Shown here piece after piece: positions 16,412 through 32,465 of a stretch of 64,000 nt of DNA. The notes under the pieces were generated by a model. That model was not told where the DNA came from. It made no database searches and saw only the letters and a list, made by a program, of their open reading frames with translations. Position numbers and translations under genes: made by a program. This stretch comes from an uncultured Ignavibacteria bacterium (GTDB taxonomy: Bacteria; Zixibacteria; MSB-5A5; SM1-73), in assembly GCA_964348415.1 (NCBI GenBank), contig CAYGCR010000004.1, positions 21,651 to 85,650 of the forward strand, in the 5' to 3' direction. Every line of letters begins with the position of its first letter. The first letter of the stretch is position 1.

Positions 16412-17164
16412 TCAAAACCTCCTGCCGATGCCAAAAACCAAATGCCTCGTCCTTATGTCCGTCTCCGCATGTCCGTTCTGAATCTTGGCATCCTTTACCT
16501 GGACATAGGTGTATTTGTATTCTATTGATAAAGCCAGACTGTGCGCTATTCCGACTTCAGTTGCGGCAGCTAACTGGTACGCGGGCCCGTGAATTTCATA
16601 CTGTTCTTTTTCCTCTCCCTCGATGGTACTTTCGGTATGCGGAATTAGGGGACCAATCCCCACTCGCCCGTAAAGCTCGACTTTGTTCCAAGAATCACCT
16701 TCGTCCCTGAGAAGTCCCAATCGACCCACCAGGTTGAAAAACAGAAAATTCAGGCCGTGACTCATGGAAAAACCCTGAACTATGTCTCCGAGCCTGATGG
16801 TTGAATCGACCAATTCTCCCCTTTTTGTTCCTGAAACATGAACTCCCTGTTCAGACTTGGAATACATCTTGGCGTGGATAAATTCGGCTTCCAAGCCAAA
16901 ACTAGGATAACGGTTAGGGAAGTAATTCACCCTTAAACCATAATACAAAGGAGTTTTCAATGATCTGTCATCATATTTAATATCGTGGAACACAAGATGA
17001 GTTTCCCTTGAAGGCTGTTCGATTCTTAAGTCGCTGTTAGAGCTGGAGGCTTTTCCCAGATAAGCTTCCAATCTCCATTCGGCGCTCGCAGGAACGGTTA
17101 GTATGACAAAGAGGTTCAGGGCTATCCAGATGATATTGGACAAGAATCGCATCCGAGACTCCAC
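16412..17164 (-). CDS. Outer-membrane beta-barrel protein (OmpW/PagL-like size class).
   Basis: It has a signal peptide and an amphipathic beta-strand pattern. The C-terminus is ..VFGIGRRF. Confidence 0.5.
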   Translation of the reverse strand: MESRMRFLSNIIWIALNLFVILTVPASAEWRLEAYLGKASSSNSDLRIEQPSRETHLVFHDIKYDDRSLKTPLYYGLRVNYFPNRYPSFGLEAEFIHAKMYSKSEQGVHVSGTKRGELVDSTIRLGDIVQGFSMSHGLNFLFFNLVGRLGLLRDEGDSWNKVELYGRVGIGPLIPHTESTIEGEEKEQYEIHGPAYQLAAATEVGIAHSLALSIEYKYTYVQVKDAKIQNGHAETDIRTRHLVFGIGRRF

Positions 17165-17432
17165 CCGTGATTATTCTAGTATTTTTTGTTTCCCAGTCAA
17201 GTAGTTTTGTTTCGATCTCAAAGGAACGCCTTCCAATCCACAGTATGTCCAGCTTCAACCTTGTTTTGCAAATAGACTGCCACAAAGCCTCTTACGTTGA
17301 CTTCTAGGCGATCCGGCGACCGTTAGCCTTTTGGGCGAAAAGCAATATCAAAGTTCTTGCACTTCGCTGCCCCAATCTCTATCTTGTGCTAAAAGGGCGT
17401 GGGTAAAACGTGGAAAGGAAAAGGGATTAATT

Positions 17433-18689
17433 ATGGCACATCTGGCAGGGAGAGACATTTATCGGAAGCTCGGCAAGAAGATTGACAATCTGACCATGAG
17501 GGCACCCTGGAATCAAACGTTTCATGCCATTTTGAAGGAGCTTTACTCTGAAGAGGAAGGAGAGGTTGTAGTCAAAATGCCTTTCGGCTTGTCTAATCTG
17601 GATCAAATTGAAAAGACCACCAGGTATGAGCGTGCTAAGTTGCAGAAAATCCTTGATAGTCTGTGTTCAAAGGGTCTGGTCATGGACCTCTGGTTACGCG
17701 GGGAGTATCACTATTCGCCTTCTCCCATGATCATCGGGATATTTGAGTTCACTATGATGCGGACACGGGGCGAGCTCAACATGAAAGAGTGGGCAAAGCT
17801 TTTCCACGAGTATTTCGACAGCGAAAACAACTTCTACTGGGCGAATTTCAGGCATGGTGAGAAAATCTCTCCTTTGCGGGCGCTGCCGCATGAGGGTACA
17901 GTGGATCCATCAGAATACGTTGAAGTCTTGGATTATGAGAAAGCGACGTCGATCGTGGAGGAAGCTGAGAAATTCTCCCTGGGCATATGCTCCTGCCGGC
18001 ACGAGAAGCTGCATGTTGGCGAGAAGAAGTGCGACGTGCCGCTTGAGACCTGTTCCTCCTTCGGAGCTGCCGCCGACTTCATGACCAGACACGGTTTTGC
18101 GAAAGAAGCTTCCAAATCCGAGATGCTGGAAAACCTTGAACGTTCGAAAGAGATGGGGCTGATATTTTGCGCAGACAACACGAAGCAGGGCGTCTCCTTC
18201 ATCTGTCACTGTTGTGGGTGCTGCTGCAACGCCCTTCTGGGTGTAAGCAAATTCGGATATCCCGGCATGGTGGTCACGTCCAACTTCATCGCACAAAGCG
18301 ACGAAGAGGTGTGCACTGAATGCGGGACGTGTGCCCAGTCCTGCCCCATCAATGCCATCGAGACGGCTCCCCAAGCCAGCCCCAGGATCGACGCGTCCAT
18401 GTGTTTGGGTTGCGCGGTGTGTGCGCTGAAGTGTCCGACCCAAGCCATGAAGCTGGTAAAGCGGAAGCAGCGAGTGCTCCATCCGGAGGACACCTTTGAA
18501 AGGGTTATTCTGCAATGCCTGGAGAGGGGAACCCTGCAGAATTTGATGTTCAACAACCCCCAGAGCCGGACCCACGCATTCGTGCGCGGGTTCGTGGGCG
18601 GATTTTTAAAACTGCCGCCGGTGAAGAAGGCCCTCATGAGCGATATGCTCCGTTCTTCATTTCTGGGGATGATGAAGAGGGGGGCCTGA
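17433..18689 (+). CDS. Fe-S protein with a 4Fe-4S dicluster ferredoxin domain plus a Cys-rich CHCCGCCC segment.
   Basis: Motifs CTECGTCAQSCP and CLGCAVCALKCP are present. The start at MAHLAGRD is preceded by a purine-rich RBS. The ORF is open from 17331. Confidence 0.5.
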   Translation: MAHLAGRDIYRKLGKKIDNLTMRAPWNQTFHAILKELYSEEEGEVVVKMPFGLSNLDQIEKTTRYERAKLQKILDSLCSKGLVMDLWLRGEYHYSPSPMIIGIFEFTMMRTRGELNMKEWAKLFHEYFDSENNFYWANFRHGEKISPLRALPHEGTVDPSEYVEVLDYEKATSIVEEAEKFSLGICSCRHEKLHVGEKKCDVPLETCSSFGAAADFMTRHGFAKEASKSEMLENLERSKEMGLIFCADNTKQGVSFICHCCGCCCNALLGVSKFGYPGMVVTSNFIAQSDEEVCTECGTCAQSCPINAIETAPQASPRIDASMCLGCAVCALKCPTQAMKLVKRKQRVLHPEDTFERVILQCLERGTLQNLMFNNPQSRTHAFVRGFVGGFLKLPPVKKALMSDMLRSSFLGMMKRGA

Positions 18690-18886: not shown

Positions 18887-20452
18887 GTGTTGAGGAAAAG
18901 CATTGGAGCTAAACTGATTCTGGTGGTGGGGTTCATCCTGATGTTGTCCATCGGGATCTATGCATACGTCAACATAGCATCTCAAAAAAGACAGCTGACC
19001 GGTGAGGTGATGCGGGGGGCTCTGAGAATCAGCGAGACGGTTAGAAGAAGCACCAGGTTGGACATGCTGAAGAACCTGAGGGAAGACCTGCACCAGATGA
19101 TCGAAACCATCGGACAGCAGGAAGGTCTGGAGAAGATCAGGGTCTTCAACAAGGACGGTCAGATAATGTTCTCCTCTGACAAAACCGACATTGGAGAGAT
19201 GGTGGACAAAAGGGCTGAAGCCTGCTACGCCTGCCACTCAGCCGAAAAGCCGTTGGAGAGACTGAACATCCCGGACCGCTCCAGAATCTTCACCTCCAAG
19301 GACGGCCACCGAGTGTTGGGGGTAATCTCCGCAATCTACAATGAACCAGACTGCTACACGCCCGAATGCCACGCCCATCCCCCGGGACAGAAGGTTCTGG
19401 GGGTATTGGATATTGGAATGTCGCTGGCGGACGTGGATAAAGACGTAAAAGGTGCCCAGAACAAGATGATCGTTTTCGCCGTAATTGCCTTTCTGATCAT
19501 TTCGGTGACCATAAGCATCTCCATCAATCGGTATGTCACTCGTCCGGTCAGGGAGTTAGTCAAAGCGACCAGAAAGATCGCCGAAGGGGACTTAGACTAT
19601 TCCATACCTGTCAAAACTGAAGGAGAGATCGCCCAGTTGGCTTCTTCCTTTAGCCAAATGACCTTGGATTTGAAAAAGGCGGACGAAAAGCTGGTCGAGT
19701 GGGGAAAAACGCTGGAACAGAAGGTGCGGGAGAGGACCGAGGAGTTGAGAAAGACCGAGAATCAGCTGATTCAGTCGGACAAGGTGGCTTCTCTGGGTAA
19801 GTTGGCTGCCGGGGTTGCCCACGAGATCAATAGTCCCCTGACCGGGATTCTTACCTATTCGTCGCTTTTGTTCAAAGCCAAGTCAGATGGAGACCCGGAC
19901 AAAGAGGATTTAGAGGTTATCGTAAATGAAACCAATCGGTGCAAGAAGATTGTCAAAGGCCTTCTGGACTATGCGCGGCAAACCGAACCCCAGAAGACCC
20001 TGTCGGACATCAATGAGGTGATCGGCAAATCCATAGACTTGATTTCGCATCAGGCCAGTCTGCAAAATGTGAAAATCGAGAAGAAAATGAAAGCGGACTT
20101 GCCCAAGATAATGGTGGATGTGAGCCAGATTCAACAGGTCTTCATCAATATCTTACTTAATGCCATTGAGGCCATGCCAGAGGGGGGAGCTTTGACTGTA
20201 TCCTCTGAGGCCGAAGGTAGAATGGTAGCTGTTCGGTTTGCGGATACCGGCATCGGAATTCCGGAGGAGCTCCTGCCGAAAATCCTGGATCCTTTCTTTA
20301 CAACCAAGACGCAGGGCAGGGGGACTGGTCTGGGGCTGTCTGTAAGCTACGGCATAGTCGAGAGGCACAGAGGCAAACTGGAAGTGAAAAGCCAGGTCGG
20401 AAAAGGCACCACCCTTACGGTAAAGCTGCCCATAAAGGAAGGGCTTTCCTGA
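18887..20452 (+). CDS. Sensor histidine kinase with a periplasmic domain carrying a c-type haem-binding motif, plus HAMP, HisKA and HATPase domains.
   Basis: It has a GTG start and two transmembrane segments. The periplasmic region contains CYACH (CXXCH) and [12 protein letters not shown] domain and an H-box ([14 protein letters not shown]) follow. N/G boxes are present. Confidence 0.8.
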
Positions 20453-20474: not shown

Positions 20475-21872
20475 ATGATCAAAGCCAGGATACTGGTAGT
20501 GGACGATGAGGAGATCGTACTGAAAAGCTGCCGCAGGATACTGGAGGAAGGCAAGCATGAGGTCTTTGCGGCACTATCCGGTGAGGAAGCTTTTGAGCTT
20601 CTGGCGAAAGAGCCTATCGACATCGTCATCACTGATGTCAAGATGCCGGGAATGGACGGCATGGAGGTTCTGGAAAGAATCAAGAAGGAATACCCGGACA
20701 TCTTGGTGATCATGATCACCGGCTACTCCACGGTCCAATCTGCGGTTCAGGCCATGAAACTGGGAGCTTTTGACTACATTCCCAAGCCTTTCAGCCCGGA
20801 CGAGGTTCTGATCGTGGTCGAGAAGGCTATGGAAAAAAAAAGCCTGATCTGTGAGACCATCTACCTGCGGAAGGAGCTACAAGCCAAGTACGGCTTTGAG
20901 AATATCATCGGCAACAGCCCCAAGATGCAGGAGGTGTATAAGCTGATTCGTAAAGTCGCTCCGACGGAGAGCACCGTTCTGATTCGGGGAGAAAGCGGGA
21001 CGGGCAAAGAACTCATCGCCCGGGCAATCCACTTCAATAGCCCCAGAAAGCAAAAGCCCTTCGTTCCGGTCGACTGCGGGGTTTTTGCCCAGGAACTTTT
21101 GGAATCTGAACTTTTCGGCCATGTAAGAGGATCGTTCACGGGGGCAATAGTGACCAAGCCCGGGCTGTTTGAGATAGCCGATGGAGGATCGATCTTCTTA
21201 GACGAGATCGGGGATACAAATGCCAATTTCCAGTCCAAGCTACTGAGAGTGATTCAGGAAAGAGAGTTTACTCCGGTGGGGGGAGTGAGGCCCAAGAGAG
21301 TGGATCTAAGATTTATCGTGGCCACAAACAAAGACCTGGAGAAGCTAGTGCAGGAGGAAAAATTCCGGGAGGACCTTTTTTACCGATTGAACGTGGTCAG
21401 CATCAGCGTGCCAACCTTGAGAGAAAAGAAAGACGACATTCCCCTTTTGGCTTATCACTTCCTGAGAAAATACGCTGAGGAGATGAAAAAGAACATCAAA
21501 AGCATTTCAGTCGACGCGATGAATATGTTAATTGTCTATAGCTGGCCCGGAAATGTCAGACAACTGGAGAACGTGATTGAACGGGCTGTTGTCATGGCCG
21601 AAGGGAATACCATCACCACCGAACACCTCCCCTTTGTTGTGGGAGCTGAGGCAGCGCATCCCGACACCCCTATTCCCAAGACTTCAGAGGAGTTGAAGGA
21701 CACTAAGAAAAAGCTGAGGGAATTTGCCGTTGAGAGCGTTGAGAAATCGTTCCTTCTCGATGCGTTGACCAGAAACGACTGGAATGTGACCAAATCCGCC
21801 AAGGACGTGGGAATGCAGAGGTCGAATTTCCAGGCTCTTATGCGGAAATACAATATAAAGCTACAGAAGTAA
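20475..21872 (+). CDS. Sigma-54-dependent response regulator (NtrC/AtoC family).
   Basis: It has a receiver domain, an AAA+ sigma-54 interaction domain (GESGTGKE, GAFTGA) and a C-terminal Fis-type HTH. Confidence 0.9.
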   Translation: MIKARILVVDDEEIVLKSCRRILEEGKHEVFAALSGEEAFELLAKEPIDIVITDVKMPGMDGMEVLERIKKEYPDILVIMITGYSTVQSAVQAMKLGAFDYIPKPFSPDEVLIVVEKAMEKKSLICETIYLRKELQAKYGFENIIGNSPKMQEVYKLIRKVAPTESTVLIRGESGTGKELIARAIHFNSPRKQKPFVPVDCGVFAQELLESELFGHVRGSFTGAIVTKPGLFEIADGGSIFLDEIGDTNANFQSKLLRVIQEREFTPVGGVRPKRVDLRFIVATNKDLEKLVQEEKFREDLFYRLNVVSISVPTLREKKDDIPLLAYHFLRKYAEEMKKNIKSISVDAMNMLIVYSWPGNVRQLENVIERAVVMAEGNTITTEHLPFVVGAEAAHPDTPIPKTSEELKDTKKKLREFAVESVEKSFLLDALTRNDWNVTKSAKDVGMQRSNFQALMRKYNIKLQK

Positions 21873-22106: not shown

Positions 22107-22122
22107 TGGCACGCTTGTTGCA
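22107..22122 (+). promoter_or_regulatory. Sigma-54 (-24/-12) promoter TGGCACG-N4-TTGCA.
   Basis: The sequence is an exact match to the RpoN consensus. It lies about 40 nt upstream of the RBS and ATG at 22163 and immediately downstream of the sigma-54 activator gene. Confidence 0.7.
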
Positions 22123-22162: not shown

Positions 22163-23179
22163 ATGGGGTACAGAGCAAATGTGCTGGTGGTGGACGATGA
22201 GCAGATAGTGTGCGATAGCTGTAGAAAGGCGTTAAGTCAGCACGGGCACAATGTTCAGACTGCTCTAAACGGCAGGGAAGCTCTGAGAAAGGTGGAACAG
22301 GACAAATATGACGTGCTTATTGCCGATTGGAAGATGCCGGAGATCGACGGCATGGAGGTCTTGAGAATCGTAAAGAAGAATCACCCCGACATAGTGGTAA
22401 TAATGATAACGGGGTATCCATCAGTCGAGTCTGCAGTAAAAGCGATGAGATTAGGTGTCTCCAACTATGTTCCAAAACCTCTTGACCCGGATGAGCTAAG
22501 TCGAACCCTGCAAAAGGCCCTGGAGGAAAGGAAAACCGGGGAAAATGACCTGTTCTATTATCAGAAATACATCTGGGCGCGCATGTTGGAGGATGGAACG
22601 GTCGAAGTCGGAGTGAACAACCTGTTTCGCGAATCCGTGGGGGACATAATGTACGTTGACTTGCCTTGTCACGAGACCAGGGCGGAACACGGAAGGCTCT
22701 TTGTCAGGATTTTGGCTGCGGACAAGCAGATGCACAAGCTCTGTGTTCCTATTCGGGGACGAGTGGTGGGGATCAACCACGAGATCAACTTCAATACCGA
22801 TTTGATAAACAAAGATCCATTCGGGAAAGGCTGGATCGTCCGACTGGAACCTTTCAATTTGGAGGGGGACCTGAAGAACTGGTCAGGCAACATCTCGATT
22901 TTCTCCGACGGTAGACAAGCGGAATTGAATTCTCAGAGCAGAGTTATCACCTCGGATTCCACGCCGACCACCGCAACCGGAACTGAAAGAGAGGAAAAAA
23001 TCAAAGAGCACTTAACCCAAAAGCCGGGAAGAAGACTGTCTGGCTTTAGGTTTCCCCTTGGGAAGTTCTTCCTATCTGCGCTTGAATCTCGGCTTTTCTT
23101 CTTGGCTTTGTTGCCCATATGCTTGGGCGCGATATCCAGAGCAGTACTTTGCCAGGTTAGCCCCCAGGGGGCTGACTGA
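22163..23179 (+). CDS. Response-regulator receiver domain fused to a GcvH-like (lipoyl-carrier fold) domain with a C-terminal hydrophobic tail.
   Basis: The receiver has the phospho-accepting Asp region (DWKMPEIDG). The downstream region aligns with glycine-cleavage H protein (..DGTVEVGV..GDIMYVDLP..LAADKQM..PIRGRVVGIN..DPFGKGWIVRLEP), and the Lys is at the lipoyl position. A strong RBS precedes the start. Confidence 0.65.
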   Translation: MGYRANVLVVDDEQIVCDSCRKALSQHGHNVQTALNGREALRKVEQDKYDVLIADWKMPEIDGMEVLRIVKKNHPDIVVIMITGYPSVESAVKAMRLGVSNYVPKPLDPDELSRTLQKALEERKTGENDLFYYQKYIWARMLEDGTVEVGVNNLFRESVGDIMYVDLPCHETRAEHGRLFVRILAADKQMHKLCVPIRGRVVGINHEINFNTDLINKDPFGKGWIVRLEPFNLEGDLKNWSGNISIFSDGRQAELNSQSRVITSDSTPTTATGTEREEKIKEHLTQKPGRRLSGFRFPLGKFFLSALESRLFFLALLPICLGAISRAVLCQVSPQGAD

Positions 23180-23184
23180 AAGGG

Positions 23185-23853
23185 GTGATTGACATGAAAC
23201 GCCGAGCCAATGTGCTGGTGGTGGACGACGAGAAGACCGTATGCAACAGTTGCAGAAAGATTCTGACCCGGGAGGGATACAATGTGGATGTGGCCCTATC
23301 GGGAGAGGAGGCGCTAAACAAGGTCAGAGGTAACGGGTTCGACGTGGTGATCACCGACTGGAGAATGCCCGAGATCGATGGCTTTGAAGTAACCCGAAGG
23401 ATAAAGAAAGAGAAGCCCCAGGTTGTGGTAGTACTGATCACTGGCTATCCTTCAGTTGAAAACTCGGTCAAGGCCATAAGATCGGGGGTGTCCGACTACC
23501 TGACCAAGCCCTTCACGCCGGAGGAACTTTCTGACGCCGTGCTGAGAGCCCTGGCGAAGGGTCAAGCTGTCCCGGCAGATTTAGCCCTGGATCGATTGGT
23601 TGAGGAAGGGATCGTGGCCCCGAGGCCGAAACCCAAGGAGGCGGAAGCCGTCGTGGACAAAGCCGCCATTGCTCCGGCAGCGACTCCGGTCCCTGCCGAA
23701 GAGGAAAAGGCTGGCCCGGCAAGATTCGTGTTGAAGTCTGTGTTGGCGCCCGTTTTTGGCAGGTTGTTCTTCATCGCCCTGGGTCCCATAGTCATTTTTT
23801 CCATCGTCAGCGGCGTTTTCAAAGCAGTTCTTGGAAAGAAGCCTGTGAGTTAG
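23185..23853 (+). CDS. Single-domain response-regulator receiver protein with a C-terminal transmembrane segment. It is a paralogue of 22163 and 23981.
   Basis: The receiver consensus has a VCNSCRK motif. An Ala/Pro-rich linker follows, then a hydrophobic tail LFFIALGPIVIFSIVSGVF. Confidence 0.7.
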   Translation: MIDMKRRANVLVVDDEKTVCNSCRKILTREGYNVDVALSGEEALNKVRGNGFDVVITDWRMPEIDGFEVTRRIKKEKPQVVVVLITGYPSVENSVKAIRSGVSDYLTKPFTPEELSDAVLRALAKGQAVPADLALDRLVEEGIVAPRPKPKEAEAVVDKAAIAPAATPVPAEEEKAGPARFVLKSVLAPVFGRLFFIALGPIVIFSIVSGVFKAVLGKKPVS

Positions 23854-23980: not shown

Positions 23981-24511
23981 ATGGTAGCTTTGTTGGTGGT
24001 ATTGACCTTCATAGTGGCGCTGGCAATTGACGCTCTGGTCAGACGAGGCAGAAAGGTGGAACACACGGCAGAATTCTCGGCAGTTACAAGACCAGCTGTT
24101 GCAACGGCTGCCGCTAAACCCGTACCCAACGTCTTGGTGGTGGACGACGAGAACACCGTATGTAACAGCTGCAAGAAGATACTGACCCAGGGAGGTTACA
24201 ACGTGGATGTGGCCTTGTCGGGACAGGAAGCATTGAACAAAATGAAGGGAAGAGGATTTGACGTGCTGATAACCGACTGGAAGATGCCGGAGATCGATGG
24301 GCTGGAGGTAACCAAAAGGATAAAGAAGGAAAATCCCAATGTAGCGGTGATAATGATAACTGGTTATCCTTCAGTCGAGTCCTCCGTCAATGCCATAAGG
24401 TCCGGGGTATCCGACTATGTGCCGAAGCCCTTTACCCCGGACGAGCTCAATGACGCTGTGATCAGGGTGTTAGAGAAGGCTGGTCGCATTCCTGCGGCCG
24501 CGCGAGCCTAA
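23981..24511 (+). CDS. Receiver-domain protein with an N-terminal transmembrane anchor (third tandem paralogue).
   Basis: The N-terminus is MVALLVVLTFIVALAI. The receiver is highly similar to the two upstream paralogues (VCNSCKK..DWKMPEIDG..ITGYPSVESSV). Confidence 0.7.
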   Translation: MVALLVVLTFIVALAIDALVRRGRKVEHTAEFSAVTRPAVATAAAKPVPNVLVVDDENTVCNSCKKILTQGGYNVDVALSGQEALNKMKGRGFDVLITDWKMPEIDGLEVTKRIKKENPNVAVIMITGYPSVESSVNAIRSGVSDYVPKPFTPDELNDAVIRVLEKAGRIPAAARA

Positions 24512-24654: not shown

Positions 24655-25419
24655 ATGACAAAACCAAAAGCGCTCTTAATTGATATCACCAAATGCATCG
24701 GCTGTCAGGCCTGCGCATTGGCCTGTAAGGAAGCCAACGGTCTTCCCGGGGAGGAGGAAGAAGAGCTCTCCGCCACAGCCTATACCGTGGTGAAGGAGAA
24801 AGACGACGTGTATTATCGTCGCCTGTGCATGCACTGCAATGACCCCACCTGCGCCTCGGTTTGTCCGGTGGGAGCGTTCGAGAAGACTCCGGAAGGCGCC
24901 GTTATCTATCAGGCATACAAGTGCATAGGGTGCCGTTACTGCATGCAGGCCTGTCCCTTCGGCGTGCCCACCTATGAATGGAAAAAGCTTGCGCCCAAGG
25001 TGAGGAAGTGCATTATGTGTTACCACAGACTGAAGGAAGGCAAGATAACCGCTTGCGCCGAGGCGTGTCCTACCGAAGCCACCATTTTCGGAAAGCGGGA
25101 CGAGCTTATCCAGGTGGCGAGAGGACGCATAAAAGAAAATCCTGATCTGTACGTGGATCACATATACGGCGAGAAGGAAGCTGGAGGGACCTCGGTTCTG
25201 ATTTTATCAAGCCTGCCATTTGAGGCGCTTGGATTCCCCACCAACCTTGGTGAACGCCCTCTGCCCGAACTGACCTGGGCGGCCCTGAAGAAAGTTCCCA
25301 GCATCATCGTTTTTGGCGGCGCAGTCCTTTACGGGATATGGTGGATTATCGACCGTAGAATGGAGTTGGCCGAATACAGAAGAAAAGAGGCGGACTCTGA
25401 GTTAAAAGACAAGATATAA
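24655..25419 (+). CDS. 4Fe-4S ferredoxin-type subunit (HybA/NrfC/PsrB-like) with a C-terminal transmembrane anchor.
   Basis: It has four Cys clusters (CIGCQAC..C, CMHCNDPTCASVCP, CIGCRYCMQACP, C..C). The C-terminus has the hydrophobic helix VPSIIVFGGAVLYGIWWII. Confidence 0.7.
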   Translation: MTKPKALLIDITKCIGCQACALACKEANGLPGEEEEELSATAYTVVKEKDDVYYRRLCMHCNDPTCASVCPVGAFEKTPEGAVIYQAYKCIGCRYCMQACPFGVPTYEWKKLAPKVRKCIMCYHRLKEGKITACAEACPTEATIFGKRDELIQVARGRIKENPDLYVDHIYGEKEAGGTSVLILSSLPFEALGFPTNLGERPLPELTWAALKKVPSIIVFGGAVLYGIWWIIDRRMELAEYRRKEADSELKDKI

Positions 25420-25469
25420 AAATGCAGTCACACGCCGACTACGAGGTTGATGACTGAAGGGAGATTACG

Positions 25470-26657
25470 ATGAGTATCAAACTACCGTTCAAGGTGACTT
25501 TCTGGAAAGTGGTTTTGCTGTTGATTTGGCTGGCTGGCCTGGTGGCGACAATCGTGCGCTTTGGTGGCGGATTAGGAGCCGCAACCAATCTGAGCGACAA
25601 GTTTCCATGGGGGCTGTGGATTGGTTTCGACGTCATATCCGGAGTGGGACTATCTGCTGGCGCATTCACCATAGCCGCGGCAGTCTACGTGTTTCACGTA
25701 AAGCGCTTCTATCCCATCCTGAAGCCCACTATCCTAACTGCCTTCTTAGGCTATCTTCTGGTCATCGTGGGGCTTTTGTTTGACGTGGGACGTCCGGACA
25801 AAATCTACAATCCACTTTTCATGGGCAACTTCCACTCGGCGCTATTTGAAGTAGCCATGTGCGTCATTTTTTACACCACGGTTTTGTTTTTCGAATTCAG
25901 CCCCAATCTTTTCGAGCGTTTAGGCTTGAGGGGACCCAAAAGATGGATAAGCAGAGTGACCATCCCCTTGGTGATACTGGGGGTCATCCTTTCCACCATG
26001 CACCAATCCTCTTTGGGCTCGCTGTTTTTGATCGTCCCCGCCAAGCTGTACGTCTTCTGGTATTCAGCCTCCCTGCCGCTTTTGTTTTACGTCTCTGCTA
26101 TTGCCGTGGGATGCGCTATGGTGATCTTCGAATCCCACCTGAGCTTCAGGGCTTTTGGTCACCGTCTGAAAGAGGACGTGCTGGCGGACATAGGAAGAAT
26201 TCTTCTGGTCGTTCTGGTGATCTATCTGCTGATGAAAGCTTATGATTTTTACATGCGGGGAGTGTGGTCGGAATTCTTCCTGCCTCGCATGGAGACCTGG
26301 CTTTTCTGGCTGGAAATCCTGTCCGGGATGGTCGCTCCCATCGTTTTGCTCTCTATACGAAAGATAAGGCTCTCCACCGGGGGATTGTACTATGCCGCGG
26401 TATGCACCATCGTGGGGTTCCTGCTAAACCGATTAAATGTTTCCACCACCGGTTTCGTGGCTTCGTCCGGCGTGAACTACTTCCCGTCCTGGATGGAAAT
26501 CGCCATTACGCTGGCTTTGGTATCCACCGGCTTTTTTATCTTTGCCATGGCGGTTCGTTATTTGCCTATCTTTGAGCATCCGGAAGCGGGTGCGGAGCCA
26601 GAAGCAGTTGGAGTCCGCGAGCGGGTCTTTGATGTTGCAGCATTGCGTAAATCGTGA
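25470..26657 (+). CDS. NrfD/PsrC/HybB-like polytopic membrane subunit (quinone-interacting).
   Basis: It has about 8-10 transmembrane helices and is adjacent to the FeS subunit, as in NrfCD/HybAB modules. Confidence 0.65.
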   Translation: MSIKLPFKVTFWKVVLLLIWLAGLVATIVRFGGGLGAATNLSDKFPWGLWIGFDVISGVGLSAGAFTIAAAVYVFHVKRFYPILKPTILTAFLGYLLVIVGLLFDVGRPDKIYNPLFMGNFHSALFEVAMCVIFYTTVLFFEFSPNLFERLGLRGPKRWISRVTIPLVILGVILSTMHQSSLGSLFLIVPAKLYVFWYSASLPLLFYVSAIAVGCAMVIFESHLSFRAFGHRLKEDVLADIGRILLVVLVIYLLMKAYDFYMRGVWSEFFLPRMETWLFWLEILSGMVAPIVLLSIRKIRLSTGGLYYAAVCTIVGFLLNRLNVSTTGFVASSGVNYFPSWMEIAITLALVSTGFFIFAMAVRYLPIFEHPEAGAEPEAVGVRERVFDVAALRKS

Positions 26658-27007: not shown

Positions 27008-27676
27008 ATGAAAATTGGAAGCTTCTCTGAACAAGACGTGCTGAAGTTGGCTAAGAAGGCATACACTGAAGGAGACGCAGGATTTGAAATCAAACCGAAC
27101 AAATGTGCCCTCTTAGTTATTGACATGCAAGATGAGTTCGTCAAACCTCATTGGTCTCCTGGTTGGGTGCCGGAAGCGACAAAGCGAGTTCCCCGAATTA
27201 AGACGCTAATTGAACACTGCAGGAGTAAGAATATCCCGGTAATCTACACAGTCTACTCAAACACACATAATTACCTGGACCGTCCGAAAACCCTAAAATT
27301 CATGCCACTGCTATATTCTGAACTGGATATTGATTTCTCGATATTCTTTGTAAACGGGCAAGTTTGGCACGAACTTGCTCCTCGGGAGGATGAGATAGTA
27401 ATCAAGAAGTCGTCTTACGGAGCATTTTATGACACACCTTTGGAGACAATTCTAAAGAATAGGGAAAAAGACACGGTGATAATATGTGGAACGATTACCA
27501 ACTGTTGCTGCGGCACAACAGCACGACAGGCATATGAAAGGAGCTTCAAAGTAATCTTCGGAAGCGATGTAACGGCGCCTGATGATCCGGAAACGCAGGA
27601 ACCGGAATTGAAAGTCTTAAGGAAAGGTTTTGCCAGGGTCCTGACGGCAGAAGAAATAATCAAGGCGCTAAGTTGA
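27008..27676 (+). CDS. Isochorismatase-family cysteine hydrolase (copy 1).
   Basis: The motifs LLVIDMQDEF and ICGTITNCCCGTTAR (catalytic Cys region) are present. A near-identical paralogue lies at 31792..32460. Confidence 0.8.
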   Translation: MKIGSFSEQDVLKLAKKAYTEGDAGFEIKPNKCALLVIDMQDEFVKPHWSPGWVPEATKRVPRIKTLIEHCRSKNIPVIYTVYSNTHNYLDRPKTLKFMPLLYSELDIDFSIFFVNGQVWHELAPREDEIVIKKSSYGAFYDTPLETILKNREKDTVIICGTITNCCCGTTARQAYERSFKVIFGSDVTAPDDPETQEPELKVLRKGFARVLTAEEIIKALS

Positions 27677-31659: not shown

Positions 31660-32465
31660 CTAATTGCCCACCCACGTGATTTTCTGCCCAGCATCGTATC
31701 TGAGACGAAAACGGGGAACCGCTACCGTCTGGAGACCGTATAGACGTAAGGTAAACGGTACAACAAAATAGATCAGGAAAGGCGGTATGCAATGAGAGTG
31801 GGAAGTTTCTCCGAACAAGATGTGCTCAGCTTGGCTAAGAGAGCGTACAATGAAGGAGACGCAGGGTTTGAGATCAAATCGGATAAATGCGCCTTGTTAG
31901 TCATTGACATGCAGGATGAATTTGTGAAACCTCATTGGTCTCCTGACTGGGTGCCCGAAGCCACAAAACGAGTACCCCGGATTAAGATGCTGATTGAACA
32001 CTGCAGGAGTAAGAATATCCCGGTAATCTACACGGTATACTCAAACACACATAATTTCCTGGACCGTCCGAAGACCGGGAAATTCATGCCAGGACGATAT
32101 TCGGAGCTGGACATTGACTTCTCCATATTCTTTGTGAATGGACGAGTCTGGCACGAACTTGCTCCTCGAGAGGATGAGATAGTGATCAAGAAGTCGTCCT
32201 ACGGAGCGTTCTATGATACACCCTTAGAGACAATTCTGAAGAACATGGGAAAGGACACGGTGATTATATGTGGGACGATAACCAACTGTTGTTGTGGTAC
32301 AACAGCACGACAGGCGTATGAAAGGAGCTTTAAAGTAGTCTTCGGAAGCGATGTAACGGCGCCTGATGATCCGGAAACGCAAGAGTCAGAGCTGAAGGTC
32401 CTAAGGAAAGGTTTTGCGAGGGTCTTGAGCGCGGAAGAAATAATCAGGGCTTTAAGCTAAATTGT
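31660..32465. repeat. Segmental duplication of about 0.8 kb. It comprises isochorismatase gene copy 2 plus about 130 bp of upstream leader, and is a duplicate of 26880-27690.
   Basis: DNA identity is about 85-90% in the leader (..ctggagaccgtatagac..taaggtaaa.ggtacaaca..gatcaggaaagg..) and in the CDS. Confidence 0.7.
31792..32460 (+). CDS. Isochorismatase-family cysteine hydrolase (copy 2).
   Basis: It is about 90% identical at the amino-acid level to 27008..27676. Confidence 0.8.
   Translation: MRVGSFSEQDVLSLAKRAYNEGDAGFEIKSDKCALLVIDMQDEFVKPHWSPDWVPEATKRVPRIKMLIEHCRSKNIPVIYTVYSNTHNFLDRPKTGKFMPGRYSELDIDFSIFFVNGRVWHELAPREDEIVIKKSSYGAFYDTPLETILKNMGKDTVIICGTITNCCCGTTARQAYERSFKVVFGSDVTAPDDPETQESELKVLRKGFARVLSAEEIIRALS

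What the first reader, a model, noticed from the sequence alone, without database searches (positions are those of the whole stretch)
18887..20452. Sensor histidine kinase with c-type haem motifs in its periplasmic domain
The periplasmic loop between the two transmembrane helices of this HAMP/HisKA/HATPase kinase contains a canonical CXXCH (ACYACHS). A second motif, CYTPECH (CX4CH), lies about 50 residues later. Covalent haem c in a sensor domain implies direct redox or ligand (NO, O2, metal) sensing at the periplasm. This is known from a few Geobacter-type sensors but is otherwise rare. The kinase sits immediately upstream of a sigma-54 activator and next to Fe-S and quinone-interacting modules, so it is probably the input of a redox-responsive regulon.
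Basis: partly seen in the sequence, partly recalled or inferred. Interest (0 to 1): 0.6.

Follow-up and report, generated by a model that had tools for sequence, protein, structure and literature searches.

The report
Two-haem periplasmic redox sensor kinase
This gene encodes a membrane sensor kinase whose outward-facing domain very probably carries two covalently bound haems; it is a new member of a sensor family first described in Geobacter, is widespread rather than rare, and appears to switch on a neighbouring membrane electron-transfer operon.

Summary
ORF 18887-20452 (+) is a 521-aa TM1 / periplasmic domain / TM2 / HAMP / HisKA / HATPase kinase. C113-YA-C116-H117 and C156-YTPE-C161-H162 both lie in the periplasmic segment. 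No other ORF in the 64 kb has such a motif. Both motifs are essentially invariant in more than 250 homologues.

The domain has a single-Cache (PAS-like) fold and is remotely homologous to the Geobacter haem-c sensors GSU0935/GSU0582. A profile alignment places the CX4CH site on GSU0935's experimentally proven haem site. It also places the invariant Met60 on GSU0935's redox-labile distal ligand Met60. So the "odd" motif is the ancestral haem site and CYACH is the added one.

Two-motif relatives (GSU0599, GSU0591/CbcD, Adeh_2011/3383) were already noted in the literature, but none has been characterised. The family is not rare: 1310 clusters at 50% identity and at least 582 genome loci across many phyla.

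The kinase is followed by a sigma-54 activator. The only perfect -24/-12 promoter in the window sits in front of the next operon (three receiver proteins plus an HmcB/HmcC-like quinone module). This linkage is conserved across phyla, often together with a 13-haem cytochrome.

Verdict: new member of a known kind; moderate interest.

The parts
18887..20452 (+). Sensor histidine kinase, 521 aa
   Evidence: ORF; HAMP, HisKA and HATPase_c domains
18911..18976 (+). TM1 (aa 9-30)
   Evidence: Hydropathy; 3 K/R in the N-terminal tail
18977..19465 (+). Periplasmic single-Cache / PAS-like sensor domain (aa 31-193)
   Evidence: AF2 model with pLDDT 86.6. Foldseek hits to WalK, DctB, KinD and CitA sensor domains. 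Weak hits to PF17203 and PF21563. Profile hit to 3b42.
19064..19066 (+). Met60 codon, candidate redox-labile distal ligand of the haem at the CX4CH site
   Evidence: Invariant in 113 sequences. Aligns with chain Met26 of 3b42, which is GSU0935 Met60 (PMC8396549).
19223..19237 (+). Haem-c motif 1, C113-YA-C116-H117, the additional site in the beta2-beta3 loop
   Evidence: Invariant in every alignment, including the divergent set A3. Lies in a low-pLDDT loop, aa 111-130.
19352..19378 (+). Haem-c motif 2, C156-YTPE-C161-H162, plus A-H164
   Evidence: Aligns with NEQRCQSCH of GSU0935, whose haem is bound at Cys140/Cys143/His144. Spacing is CX2-5CH across the family, and H164 is conserved only in the closer subfamily.
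19466..19528 (+). TM2 (aa 194-214)
   Evidence: Hydropathy; 6 K/R follow it
19523..19669 (+). HAMP domain
   Evidence: PF00672, E=1.6e-14
19793..19984 (+). HisKA domain (contains the AHEINSPL sequence)
   Evidence: PF00512, E=1.4e-15
20117..20437 (+). HATPase_c domain
   Evidence: PF02518, E=3.7e-27
20475..21872 (+). NtrC-family sigma-54 activator (REC, AAA+ with GSFTGA, HTH_8), the presumed cognate response regulator
   Evidence: Pfam; GSFTGA at aa 219; adjacent to the kinase in 28/80 related loci
22107..22121 (+). Sigma-54 -24/-12 promoter, TGGCACGCTTGTTGC
   Evidence: The only zero-mismatch match in 64 kb on either strand. Ends 42 nt upstream of the ATG at 22163. An equivalent site lies upstream of the same operon in L004 and L006.
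22163..23179 (+). REC + GcvH-like domain + C-terminal TM helix (the ORF is listed from GTG 22133; the likely start is ATG 22163)
   Evidence: Pfam REC and GCV_H; TM at aa 302-333; found near the kinase in 39/80 loci
23185..23853 (+). Single-domain receiver with a C-terminal TM helix
   Evidence: Pfam REC; TM at aa 181-217
23981..24511 (+). N-terminal TM helix plus receiver domain
   Evidence: Pfam REC; TM at aa 1-23
24655..25419 (+). HmcB/HybA-like 4x[4Fe-4S] protein with no Tat signal and a C-terminal TM helix
   Evidence: NF045715, 275 bits, below its cutoff of 420; Fer4_11; no twin-arginine motif; linked to the kinase in 51/80 loci
25470..26657 (+). HmcC/NrfD-like integral membrane quinone-interacting subunit
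   Evidence: PF03916; NF045714, 321 bits, below its cutoff of 550; 10 hydrophobic segments; linked to the kinase in 50/80 loci

Best explanation
This is a class-I membrane histidine kinase. Its periplasmic single-Cache (PAS-like) domain carries two covalently attached c-type haems.

Haem A sits at C156-X4-C161-H162. This is the ancestral site of the Geobacter GSU0935/GSU0582 haem-c sensor family, with Met60 on the N-terminal helix as its distal ligand. Haem B sits at C113-X2-C116-H117, in an insertion in the beta2-beta3 loop. In this subfamily, H164 is the candidate distal ligand of haem B.

By analogy with GSU0935/GSU0582, reduction or oxidation of haem A binds or releases Met60. A diatomic ligand could displace Met60 in the same way. 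The resulting movement of the helix that continues from TM1 would pass through TM2 and HAMP to the kinase core. Haem B most likely serves as the electron entry or relay haem.

The kinase would then phosphorylate the sigma-54 activator encoded next to it, and probably the three single-domain receivers as well. The activator would fire the -24/-12 promoter at 22107-22121 and switch on the operon REC-GcvH-like / REC / REC / HmcB-like / HmcC-like.

Shown here: topology, fold, motif conservation, homology to the Geobacter haem site, the promoter, and synteny. Inferred: haem attachment, axial ligands, redox potential as the signal, and the phosphotransfer partners.
For: Topology and domains.

Both motifs are conserved, and M60, C113, C116, H117, C156, C161, H162 and H164 are invariant in 113 sequences at 36-85% identity.

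Profile versus PDB: 3b42 (GSU0935) at E=9.7e-5. Met26 of that chain (Met60, the distal ligand) aligns with our M60, and NEQRCQSCH aligns with [11 protein letters not shown]. The ligand identities come from PMC8396549.

PF21563, the family built on the Geobacter sensor, is hit by 17/18 relatives, best E=2e-7, and by 17/72 at E<=1e-4, best 4.7e-10.

The AF2 model has pLDDT 86.6 with a Cache fold, and the low-confidence stretches are the two motif loops. The best structural neighbours are WalK, DctB, KinD and CitA. WalK is also the comparison sCache domain used in the sCache_haem preprint.

The only perfect sigma-54 promoter in the window lies before the downstream operon and is conserved in L004 and L006.

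Linkage across 80 loci: HmcB-like 51, HmcC-like 50, REC-GcvH 39. A c3-type multihaem cytochrome lies directly upstream in 34/72 loci.

In Geobacter, the two-motif proteins GSU0591 (CbcD) and GSU0599 flank the cbcBA quinol oxidoreductase operon. That operon is induced at low potential through the sigma-54 activator BccR, GSU0598.
Against: Nothing here shows that haem is attached.

This protein scores only 18.5-19.4 bits on PF21563, below the cutoff of 27. It finds no PDB relative as a single sequence.

H164 is lost in about 20 of 142 divergent representatives, so its role as a ligand is a guess.

The window holds no other cytochrome c gene, and no cytochrome-maturation gene was identified.

In this lineage the HmcB-like protein has no Tat signal and no multihaem cytochrome is nearby. 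The link to the module may therefore be purely transcriptional.

Related single-haem Cache sensors behave like NO sensors, so the signal need not be redox potential.
Confidence: 0.72

Rival explanations
1. It is a gas sensor (NO or CO) rather than a redox-potential sensor. A diatomic ligand displaces Met60 at haem A and that displacement is the physiological signal.
For: GSU0582/GSU0935 bind NO and CO by displacing Met60. sCache_haem domains fused to signalling modules have NO-sensor-like properties (PMC12889525).
Against: A second, strictly conserved haem is typical of electron transfer rather than ligand binding. The conserved genomic linkage is to quinone modules and c3-type multihaem cytochromes, not to NO-detoxification genes. 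The Geobacter analogue responds to falling potential.
Confidence: 0.2
2. Only the CX4CH site binds haem. C113/C116 form a structural disulfide or a metal site and H117 plays another role.
For: The characterised Geobacter relatives have a single haem at the position of motif 2. The AF2 loop around motif 1 has low confidence.
Against: C113, C116 and H117 are the three residues invariant in every set, including the most divergent one, where motif 2 varies more. A disulfide would not require the His directly after the second Cys. The literature treats such second motifs as haem sites.
Confidence: 0.06
3. The haem domain is mainly a docking or electron-accepting subunit of a respiratory complex, like CbcD. 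The kinase reports electron flux through that complex rather than ambient potential.
For: [quoted passage not shown] In 34/72 loci the kinase gene directly follows a multihaem cytochrome and an NrfCD-type module.
Against: In this window and its closest relatives (L004, L006) there is no cytochrome partner and the Fe-S subunit lacks a Tat signal. This is a refinement of the best explanation rather than a contradiction of it.
Confidence: 0.25
4. The motifs are chance occurrences, or the segment is cytoplasmic.
For: None was found.
Against: The chance expectation is about 7e-4 per motif. The motifs are near-universally conserved. The topology has two TM segments followed by HAMP.
Confidence: 0.01

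Closest known systems
GSU0935 / GSU0582 periplasmic haem-c sensor domains of Geobacter sulfurreducens chemoreceptors (PDB 3B42, 3B47; Pfam PF21563)
   Same: Both are extracytoplasmic PAS-like/sCache domains between two TM helices, followed by HAMP. The haem motif follows the conserved 'P-x-x-N-E' after the penultimate strand. The distal Met on the N-terminal helix aligns residue for residue. A redox-linked Met on/off switch has been proposed for these proteins, with Em of -156 and -251 mV.
   Different: Those proteins have one haem (CXXCH) and an MCP output. Here there is CX4CH at that site, an extra CXXCH haem motif in the beta2-beta3 loop, and a histidine-kinase output. Sequence similarity is remote: 25 bits by profile, and this protein falls below the Pfam cutoff.
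Two-motif Geobacter/Anaeromyxobacter sensors: GSU0599 (two-component protein beside bccR/GSU0598), GSU0591 (CbcD of Cbc5), Adeh_2011, Adeh_3383
   Same: Those proteins have two CX2-4CH motifs in a sensor homologous to GSU0582/0935. A HAMP domain is reported for GSU0591. GSU0599 lies beside a sigma-54 activator and a quinol-oxidoreductase operon. That is the arrangement seen here.
   Different: I could not obtain those sequences, so direct homology or orthology is untested. The Geobacter target is a cytochrome b/c complex (CbcBA), whereas here it is an HmcB/HmcC-like Fe-S/NrfD pair with receiver proteins. None of these two-motif proteins has been characterised biochemically in the papers I could find.
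sCache_haem family (DUF3365/Tll0287-like, PF11845; Deshpande et al. 2026 preprint)
   Same: Both are Cache folds with an inserted CXXCH element, and WalK is the nearest haem-free structural relative in both cases. The family is widespread and is fused to kinases, MCPs and GGDEF domains.
   Different: Only 1 of 18 relatives touches PF11845, at E=0.094. A search of the preprint text for 'two heme' or 'diheme' found nothing.
DcrA of Desulfovibrio vulgaris (chemoreceptor with a periplasmic c-type haem)
   Same: Both are periplasmic haem-c sensors of redox state or oxygen in an anaerobe (cited).
   Different: DcrA has an MCP output and a single haem. Homology was not tested here.
BccR-CbcBA low-potential regulatory circuit of G. 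sulfurreducens
   Same: In both, a sigma-54 response regulator activates a membrane quinone-linked electron-transfer operon when redox conditions change.
   Different: The cognate sensor of BccR was not discussed in that paper; a search for 'histidine kinase' and 'sensor' found nothing. The target genes differ.

Membership tests
Haem-c PAS-like/sCache periplasmic sensors (GSU0935/GSU0582 type, PF21563) | Sensor domain is extracytoplasmic, between two TM helices and ahead of HAMP | tested here: met
   Two hydrophobic segments, the positive-inside rule, and HAMP at 213-261
Haem-c PAS-like/sCache periplasmic sensors (GSU0935/GSU0582 type, PF21563) | Single Cache / PDC fold | tested here: met
   AF2 pLDDT 86.6 with a long helix, a short helix and five strands. 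Foldseek hits to WalK (1e-5), DctB, KinD and CitA.
Haem-c PAS-like/sCache periplasmic sensors (GSU0935/GSU0582 type, PF21563) | C-Xn-C-H haem-attachment motif after the penultimate beta-strand | tested here: met
   [11 protein letters not shown] aligns with NEQRCQSCH of 3b42. The spacing here is X4 instead of X2. Relatives show X2 to X5 at the same place.
Haem-c PAS-like/sCache periplasmic sensors (GSU0935/GSU0582 type, PF21563) | Distal Met on the N-terminal helix (GSU0935 Met60) | tested here: met
   M60 is invariant and aligns with chain Met26 of 3b42
Haem-c PAS-like/sCache periplasmic sensors (GSU0935/GSU0582 type, PF21563) | Sequence score above the Pfam gathering threshold for PF21563 | tested here: inconclusive
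   This protein scores 18.5-19.4 bits against a cutoff of 27. Relatives reach 28.9 bits and E=4.7e-10. The family profile hits 3b42 at E=9.7e-5.
Haem-c PAS-like/sCache periplasmic sensors (GSU0935/GSU0582 type, PF21563) | Covalently bound haem c | not testable with these tools
   Needs expression, haem stain and spectroscopy
Two-haem-motif subgroup (GSU0599, GSU0591/CbcD, Adeh_2011, Adeh_3383) | A second CX2-4CH motif within the same sensor domain | tested here: met
   CYACH at 113-117 is invariant. The subgroup is described.
Two-haem-motif subgroup (GSU0599, GSU0591/CbcD, Adeh_2011, Adeh_3383) | Direct sequence homology to GSU0599/GSU0591, with both motifs in equivalent positions | not tested
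   Those sequences were not retrievable. The single genome-contig scan returned only the 80 best loci, none of them from Geobacter.
sCache_haem / Tll0287-like (PF11845) | Match to the PF11845 profile | tested here: not met
   Only 1/18 relatives matches, at E=0.094, and this protein does not
HisKA-type (class I) sensor histidine kinase | HisKA dimerisation/phospho-acceptor domain and an HATPase_c catalytic domain | tested here: met
   PF00512 at 1.4e-15 and PF02518 at 3.7e-27. H312, G455/G457 and G481/G483 are nearly invariant.
NtrC-family sigma-54 two-component pair | Adjacent regulator with REC, AAA+ (GAFTGA loop) and HTH, plus a -24/-12 promoter nearby | tested here: met
   Pfam; GSFTGA; TGGCACGCTTGTTGC at 22107-22121. 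Phosphotransfer itself was not tested.

The most novel reading that the evidence does not exclude
The two-haem kinase, the GcvH-like receiver proteins, an NrfC/NrfD-type quinone module and (in most phyla) a 13-haem c3-type cytochrome form one conserved, undescribed cross-phylum unit. In it, the sensor's haems are reduced directly by the co-encoded cytochrome chain, so the cell reads electron flux or potential at the periplasmic face. The membrane-anchored receivers, with non-lipoylated GcvH-like domains, would then regulate the quinone module post-translationally, in parallel with sigma-54 transcriptional control.
Probability: 0.2. Interest if true: 0.6.

Novelty: new member of a known kind. 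Interest (0 to 1): 0.36.

Why it matters
Haem-c Cache/PAS sensors are one of the few ways a bacterium can read periplasmic redox potential directly. Only two single-haem chemoreceptor domains have been studied in depth.

This analysis shows that the two-haem kinase version is a coherent and widespread family: 1310 clusters across Zixibacteria, Ignavibacteria, Bacteroidota, Desulfobacterota, Acidobacteriota, NC10, Gammaproteobacteria and others. It has defined candidate ligands (His162/Met60 and His117/His164). It is also consistently linked to quinone-interacting modules and multihaem cytochromes.

That gives concrete mutants and a concrete promoter (22107-22121) with which to test how anaerobes tune respiratory modules to potential. 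It may also identify the missing sensor type upstream of BccR-like regulators. It does not overturn current understanding.

Tried and rejected
- A single-sequence search of the PDB with the sensor domain gave only a chance hit. A family profile was needed.
I dropped it from the system.
- A search for activator-binding repeats between 21860 and 22135 found nothing convincing.
- Sigma-54 matches with 1-2 mismatches are at chance level across the window (59 observed versus 58.9 expected). Only the zero-mismatch site is used.
- A literature search for receiver-GcvH fusions found nothing.
- I could not retrieve GSU0599/GSU0591 to test orthology.
- Model coordinates are not exposed, so haem-ligand distances (M60-H162, H117-H164) could not be measured.
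- Lipoylation of the GcvH-like domain was considered and rejected.
Full report
**1. The observation**

The ORF at 18887-20452 (+) exists as described: 521 aa with a GTG start. Pfam finds HAMP (213-261), HisKA (303-366) and HATPase_c (411-517).

Hydropathy shows only two hydrophobic segments, at about aa 9-30 and 194-214. Three K/R precede the first. Six K/R and the HAMP domain follow the second. Residues 31-193 are therefore extracytoplasmic.

The two motifs are C113-YA-C116-H117 (nt 19223-19237) and C156-YTPE-C161-H162-A-H164 (nt 19352-19378). They start 43 residues apart. Four of the five cysteines in the protein belong to these motifs.

No other ORF of at least 100 aa in the 64-kb window has any CX2-4CH motif. 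The chance expectation is about 7e-4 per 160 residues.

**2. Conservation**

A search with the first 220 residues returned 212 homologues; the best 120 share 37-85% identity.
- All 120 keep CXXCH.
- 111 keep CX4CH and two have CX3CH.
- The other seven are truncated or frameshifted fragments.

In a 113-sequence alignment the invariant residues are M60, R85, G91, E111, C113, C116, H117, R133, C156, C161, H162 and H164. That gives two Cys-Cys-His triads plus exactly one Met and one further His. This is the number of side chains needed for two six-coordinate haems.

An exhaustive search of 1.84 billion cluster representatives found 1310 clusters at E<=1e-3 and 690 at E<=1e-10. Among the best 142 new representatives, 133 have two CX2-4CH motifs. 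The second motif varies from CX2CH to CX5CH, and H164 is lost in roughly 20.

In the alignment of 72 full-length members, C113, C116 and H117 stay invariant while C156, C161 and H162 are nearly invariant. Of these 72 members, 63-68 have the HAMP-HisKA-HATPase architecture.

**3. Fold and homology**

AlphaFold2 with the alignment gives a confident model (mean pLDDT 86.6, pTM 0.76). It has a long N-terminal helix continuous with TM1, a short helix, two strands, a loop carrying motif 1, two strands, a loop carrying motif 2, a last strand, and a helix running into TM2. The low-confidence stretches (pLDDT 61-75) are the two motif loops. That is expected when a cofactor is missing from the model.

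Foldseek against the PDB finds extracellular single or double Cache domains: WalK (E=1e-5; integrative model 9a5d at 5.8e-9), DctB, KinD and CitA.

Pfam gives sub-threshold hits to sCache_3_2 and to PF21563 (Mcp40H-20_sensor, the family built on the Geobacter haem-c chemoreceptor domain) for this protein. Relatives score above or near threshold: P0017 reaches 28.9 bits against a cutoff of 27, and 17/18 relatives match with best E=2e-7.

A profile of 18 sensor domains hits PDB 3b42 (GSU0935) at E=9.7e-5, and the alignment is informative.
- Chain Met26 of 3b42 aligns with our invariant M60. With the 34-residue offset that places the aligned CQSCH on Cys140/Cys143/His144, chain Met26 is the Met60 described as the distal haem ligand.
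- 'PFPNEQRCQSCH' aligns with '[14 protein letters not shown]'.

According to PMC8396549, GSU0935 binds haem through Cys140/Cys143/His144 with Met60 as distal ligand. Met60 binds the reduced haem and is released on oxidation or displaced by NO/CO. The midpoint potentials are -156 mV for GSU0582 and -251 mV for GSU0935.

CYACH is an additional site inserted in the beta2-beta3 loop. CX4CH is an established haem-c attachment motif in Desulfovibrio cytochrome c3 (my own knowledge), and the Geobacter sensor literature uses the signature CX2-4CH.

**4. What is already known**

PMC8396549 (citing Londer et al. 2006) lists twelve G. sulfurreducens signal transducers with haem-c motifs. Two of them have two motifs: GSU0591 and GSU0599. 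GSU0599 is annotated as a two-component protein.

PMC3831638 notes the same additional motif in Adeh_2011 and Adeh_3383.

GSU0598, next to GSU0599, is BccR. It is the sigma-54 activator required to induce the cbcBA quinol oxidoreductase as potential falls.

A 2026 preprint (PMC12889525) defines a large 'sCache_haem' family of about 20,000 sequences that includes GSU0582/0935. It uses WalK as the comparison sCache domain and shows NO-sensor-like behaviour for signalling members. A search of its text for 'two heme' or 'diheme' found nothing.

I found no biochemical study of any two-motif member. I could not obtain GSU0599/GSU0591 sequences to test orthology directly.

**5. Genomic context and output**

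The kinase is followed by an NtrC-type sigma-54 activator (20475-21872) with REC, an AAA+ domain carrying GSFTGA, and HTH_8.

The only zero-mismatch match to TGGCAC-N5-TTGC in the whole window, on either strand, is at 22107-22121. It lies in the intergenic region after the activator and ends 42 nt upstream of the ATG at 22163. Matches with 1-2 mismatches are at chance level and were ignored.

The operon behind this promoter encodes:
- REC + GcvH-like domain + TM helix (22163-23179);
- REC + TM helix (23185-23853);
- TM helix + REC (23981-24511);
- an HmcB/HybA-like four-cluster ferredoxin with a C-terminal TM helix but no Tat signal (24655-25419);
- an HmcC/NrfD-like membrane protein (25470-26657).

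The closest related loci that extend far enough (L004 and L006, Zixibacteria-type MAGs) carry an equivalent -24/-12 site just upstream of the same operon.

**6. Conservation of the neighbourhood**

A scan of one genome per species found at least 582 loci encoding relatives. The 80 best come from MAGs labelled Zixibacteria or Ignavibacteria (82-88% identity, so the window is probably from Zixibacteria), Desulfobacterota, NC10, Acidobacteriota, Bacteroidota, Calditrichia, KSB1, Gemmatimonadota and Gammaproteobacteria.

Within 9 kb of the kinase, the 80 loci contain:
- an HmcB-like gene in 51;
- an HmcC-like gene in 50;
- a REC-GcvH-like gene in 39;
- a sigma-54 activator in 28;
- the upstream Fe-S gene of this window in only 1.

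In 30 of the 51 HmcB-positive loci the HmcB-like protein has a twin-arginine signal. In 34 of the 72 loci with enough upstream sequence, a multihaem cytochrome is encoded directly upstream on the same strand.

In the complete Ignavibacteriales chromosome locus L052 the order is: Tat-HybA-like, NrfD-like, 13-haem class III cytochrome, two-haem kinase, REC-GcvH, TM-REC-GcvH.

The two-haem sensor is therefore habitually wired to periplasmic electron-transfer chains and quinone modules. The arrangement in this window is a reduced variant with no cytochrome and no Tat signal.

**7. Mechanism**

The best-supported reading is a two-haem periplasmic redox sensor, stated with its shown and inferred steps under 'best explanation'. 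In brief:
- Haem A (C156/C161/H162 with Met60) acts as the ligand-switch haem, as in GSU0935.
- Haem B (C113/C116/H117, possibly with H164) acts as a relay or second sensing centre.
- The signal passes through TM2/HAMP to the kinase, then to the sigma-54 activator, and then to the promoter at 22107-22121.

The main rival is that the physiological signal is NO or CO rather than potential. A one-haem model is unlikely given the absolute conservation of C113/C116/H117. A chance or cytoplasmic explanation is excluded.

**8. Verdict**

- the CX4CH site is the canonical one for this family;
- the family is common rather than rare;
- only the downstream module, not the upstream Fe-S gene, belongs to the system.

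This is a new member of a known kind: the haem-c Cache/PAS sensor family, in its two-motif subgroup that had been noted only from sequence. Interest is moderate. The most useful new points are the ligand assignment by homology, the sigma-54 promoter, and the cross-phylum linkage to NrfCD-type modules, c3-type cytochromes and the undescribed REC-GcvH-like proteins.

Noticed in passing
window 22163-23179 (also L052 11863-12669 and 12719-13882): A receiver domain is fused to a glycine-cleavage-H-like (barrel-sandwich) domain, here with a C-terminal TM helix. It is encoded next to the two-haem kinase in 39/80 loci across phyla. The lipoyl-lysine position is K in only 3 of 76 sequences (mostly D or N), so the domain is probably not lipoylated. 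I found no literature on such a fusion.
   Followed up: partly
window 23185-23853 and 23981-24511: Two single-domain response regulators are anchored by one TM helix, C-terminal in one and N-terminal in the other. They lie in the same sigma-54 operon as the HmcB/HmcC-like module. They could be phosphate sinks or membrane-level regulators of that module.
   Followed up: partly
window 24655-26657: An HmcB/HybA-like four-cluster Fe-S protein has no Tat signal but does have a C-terminal TM helix. It is paired with an NrfD/HmcC-like membrane protein, and there is no catalytic or cytochrome subunit nearby. In 30/51 related loci the Fe-S subunit does have a Tat signal. The orientation and partner of the signal-less form are unclear.
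   Followed up: partly
L052 9971-11854 and similar Ignavibacteria/Bacteroidota loci: The kinase is about 627 aa in these lineages, compared with 521 aa here. The L052 sequence contains cysteine pairs (CPECN...CPKCG) ahead of the C-terminal HATPase_c match and gives a weak Pfam Zn_Ribbon_1 hit at aa 498-519, which this window's kinase lacks.
   Followed up: no
protein P0052 (323 aa, seen on 24 contigs): The two-haem sensor domain has no TM2 or kinase and continues directly into a GcvH-like C-terminal part resembling the downstream TM-REC-GcvH gene. It is either a real deletion/fusion variant or an assembly artefact.
   Followed up: no
window 27008-27676 and 31792-32460: Two 222-aa paralogues that are 91% identical lie 4.8 kb apart on the same strand, suggesting a recent local duplication. 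No domain search was run on them.
   Followed up: no
window 17268-17282 (-): A one-mismatch sigma-54-like site (TGGCAGTCTATTTGC) lies about 100 nt upstream of the minus-strand ORF 16412-17164, which has a hydrophobic N-terminus. Matches with 1-2 mismatches are at chance frequency in the window as a whole, so this may mean nothing.
   Followed up: no
window 17331-18689: A 452-aa protein with two [4Fe-4S] ferredoxin motifs and a CHCCGCCC cysteine cluster lies directly upstream of the kinase. It is conserved there only in L005, so it is probably unrelated to the sensor system.
   Followed up: partly
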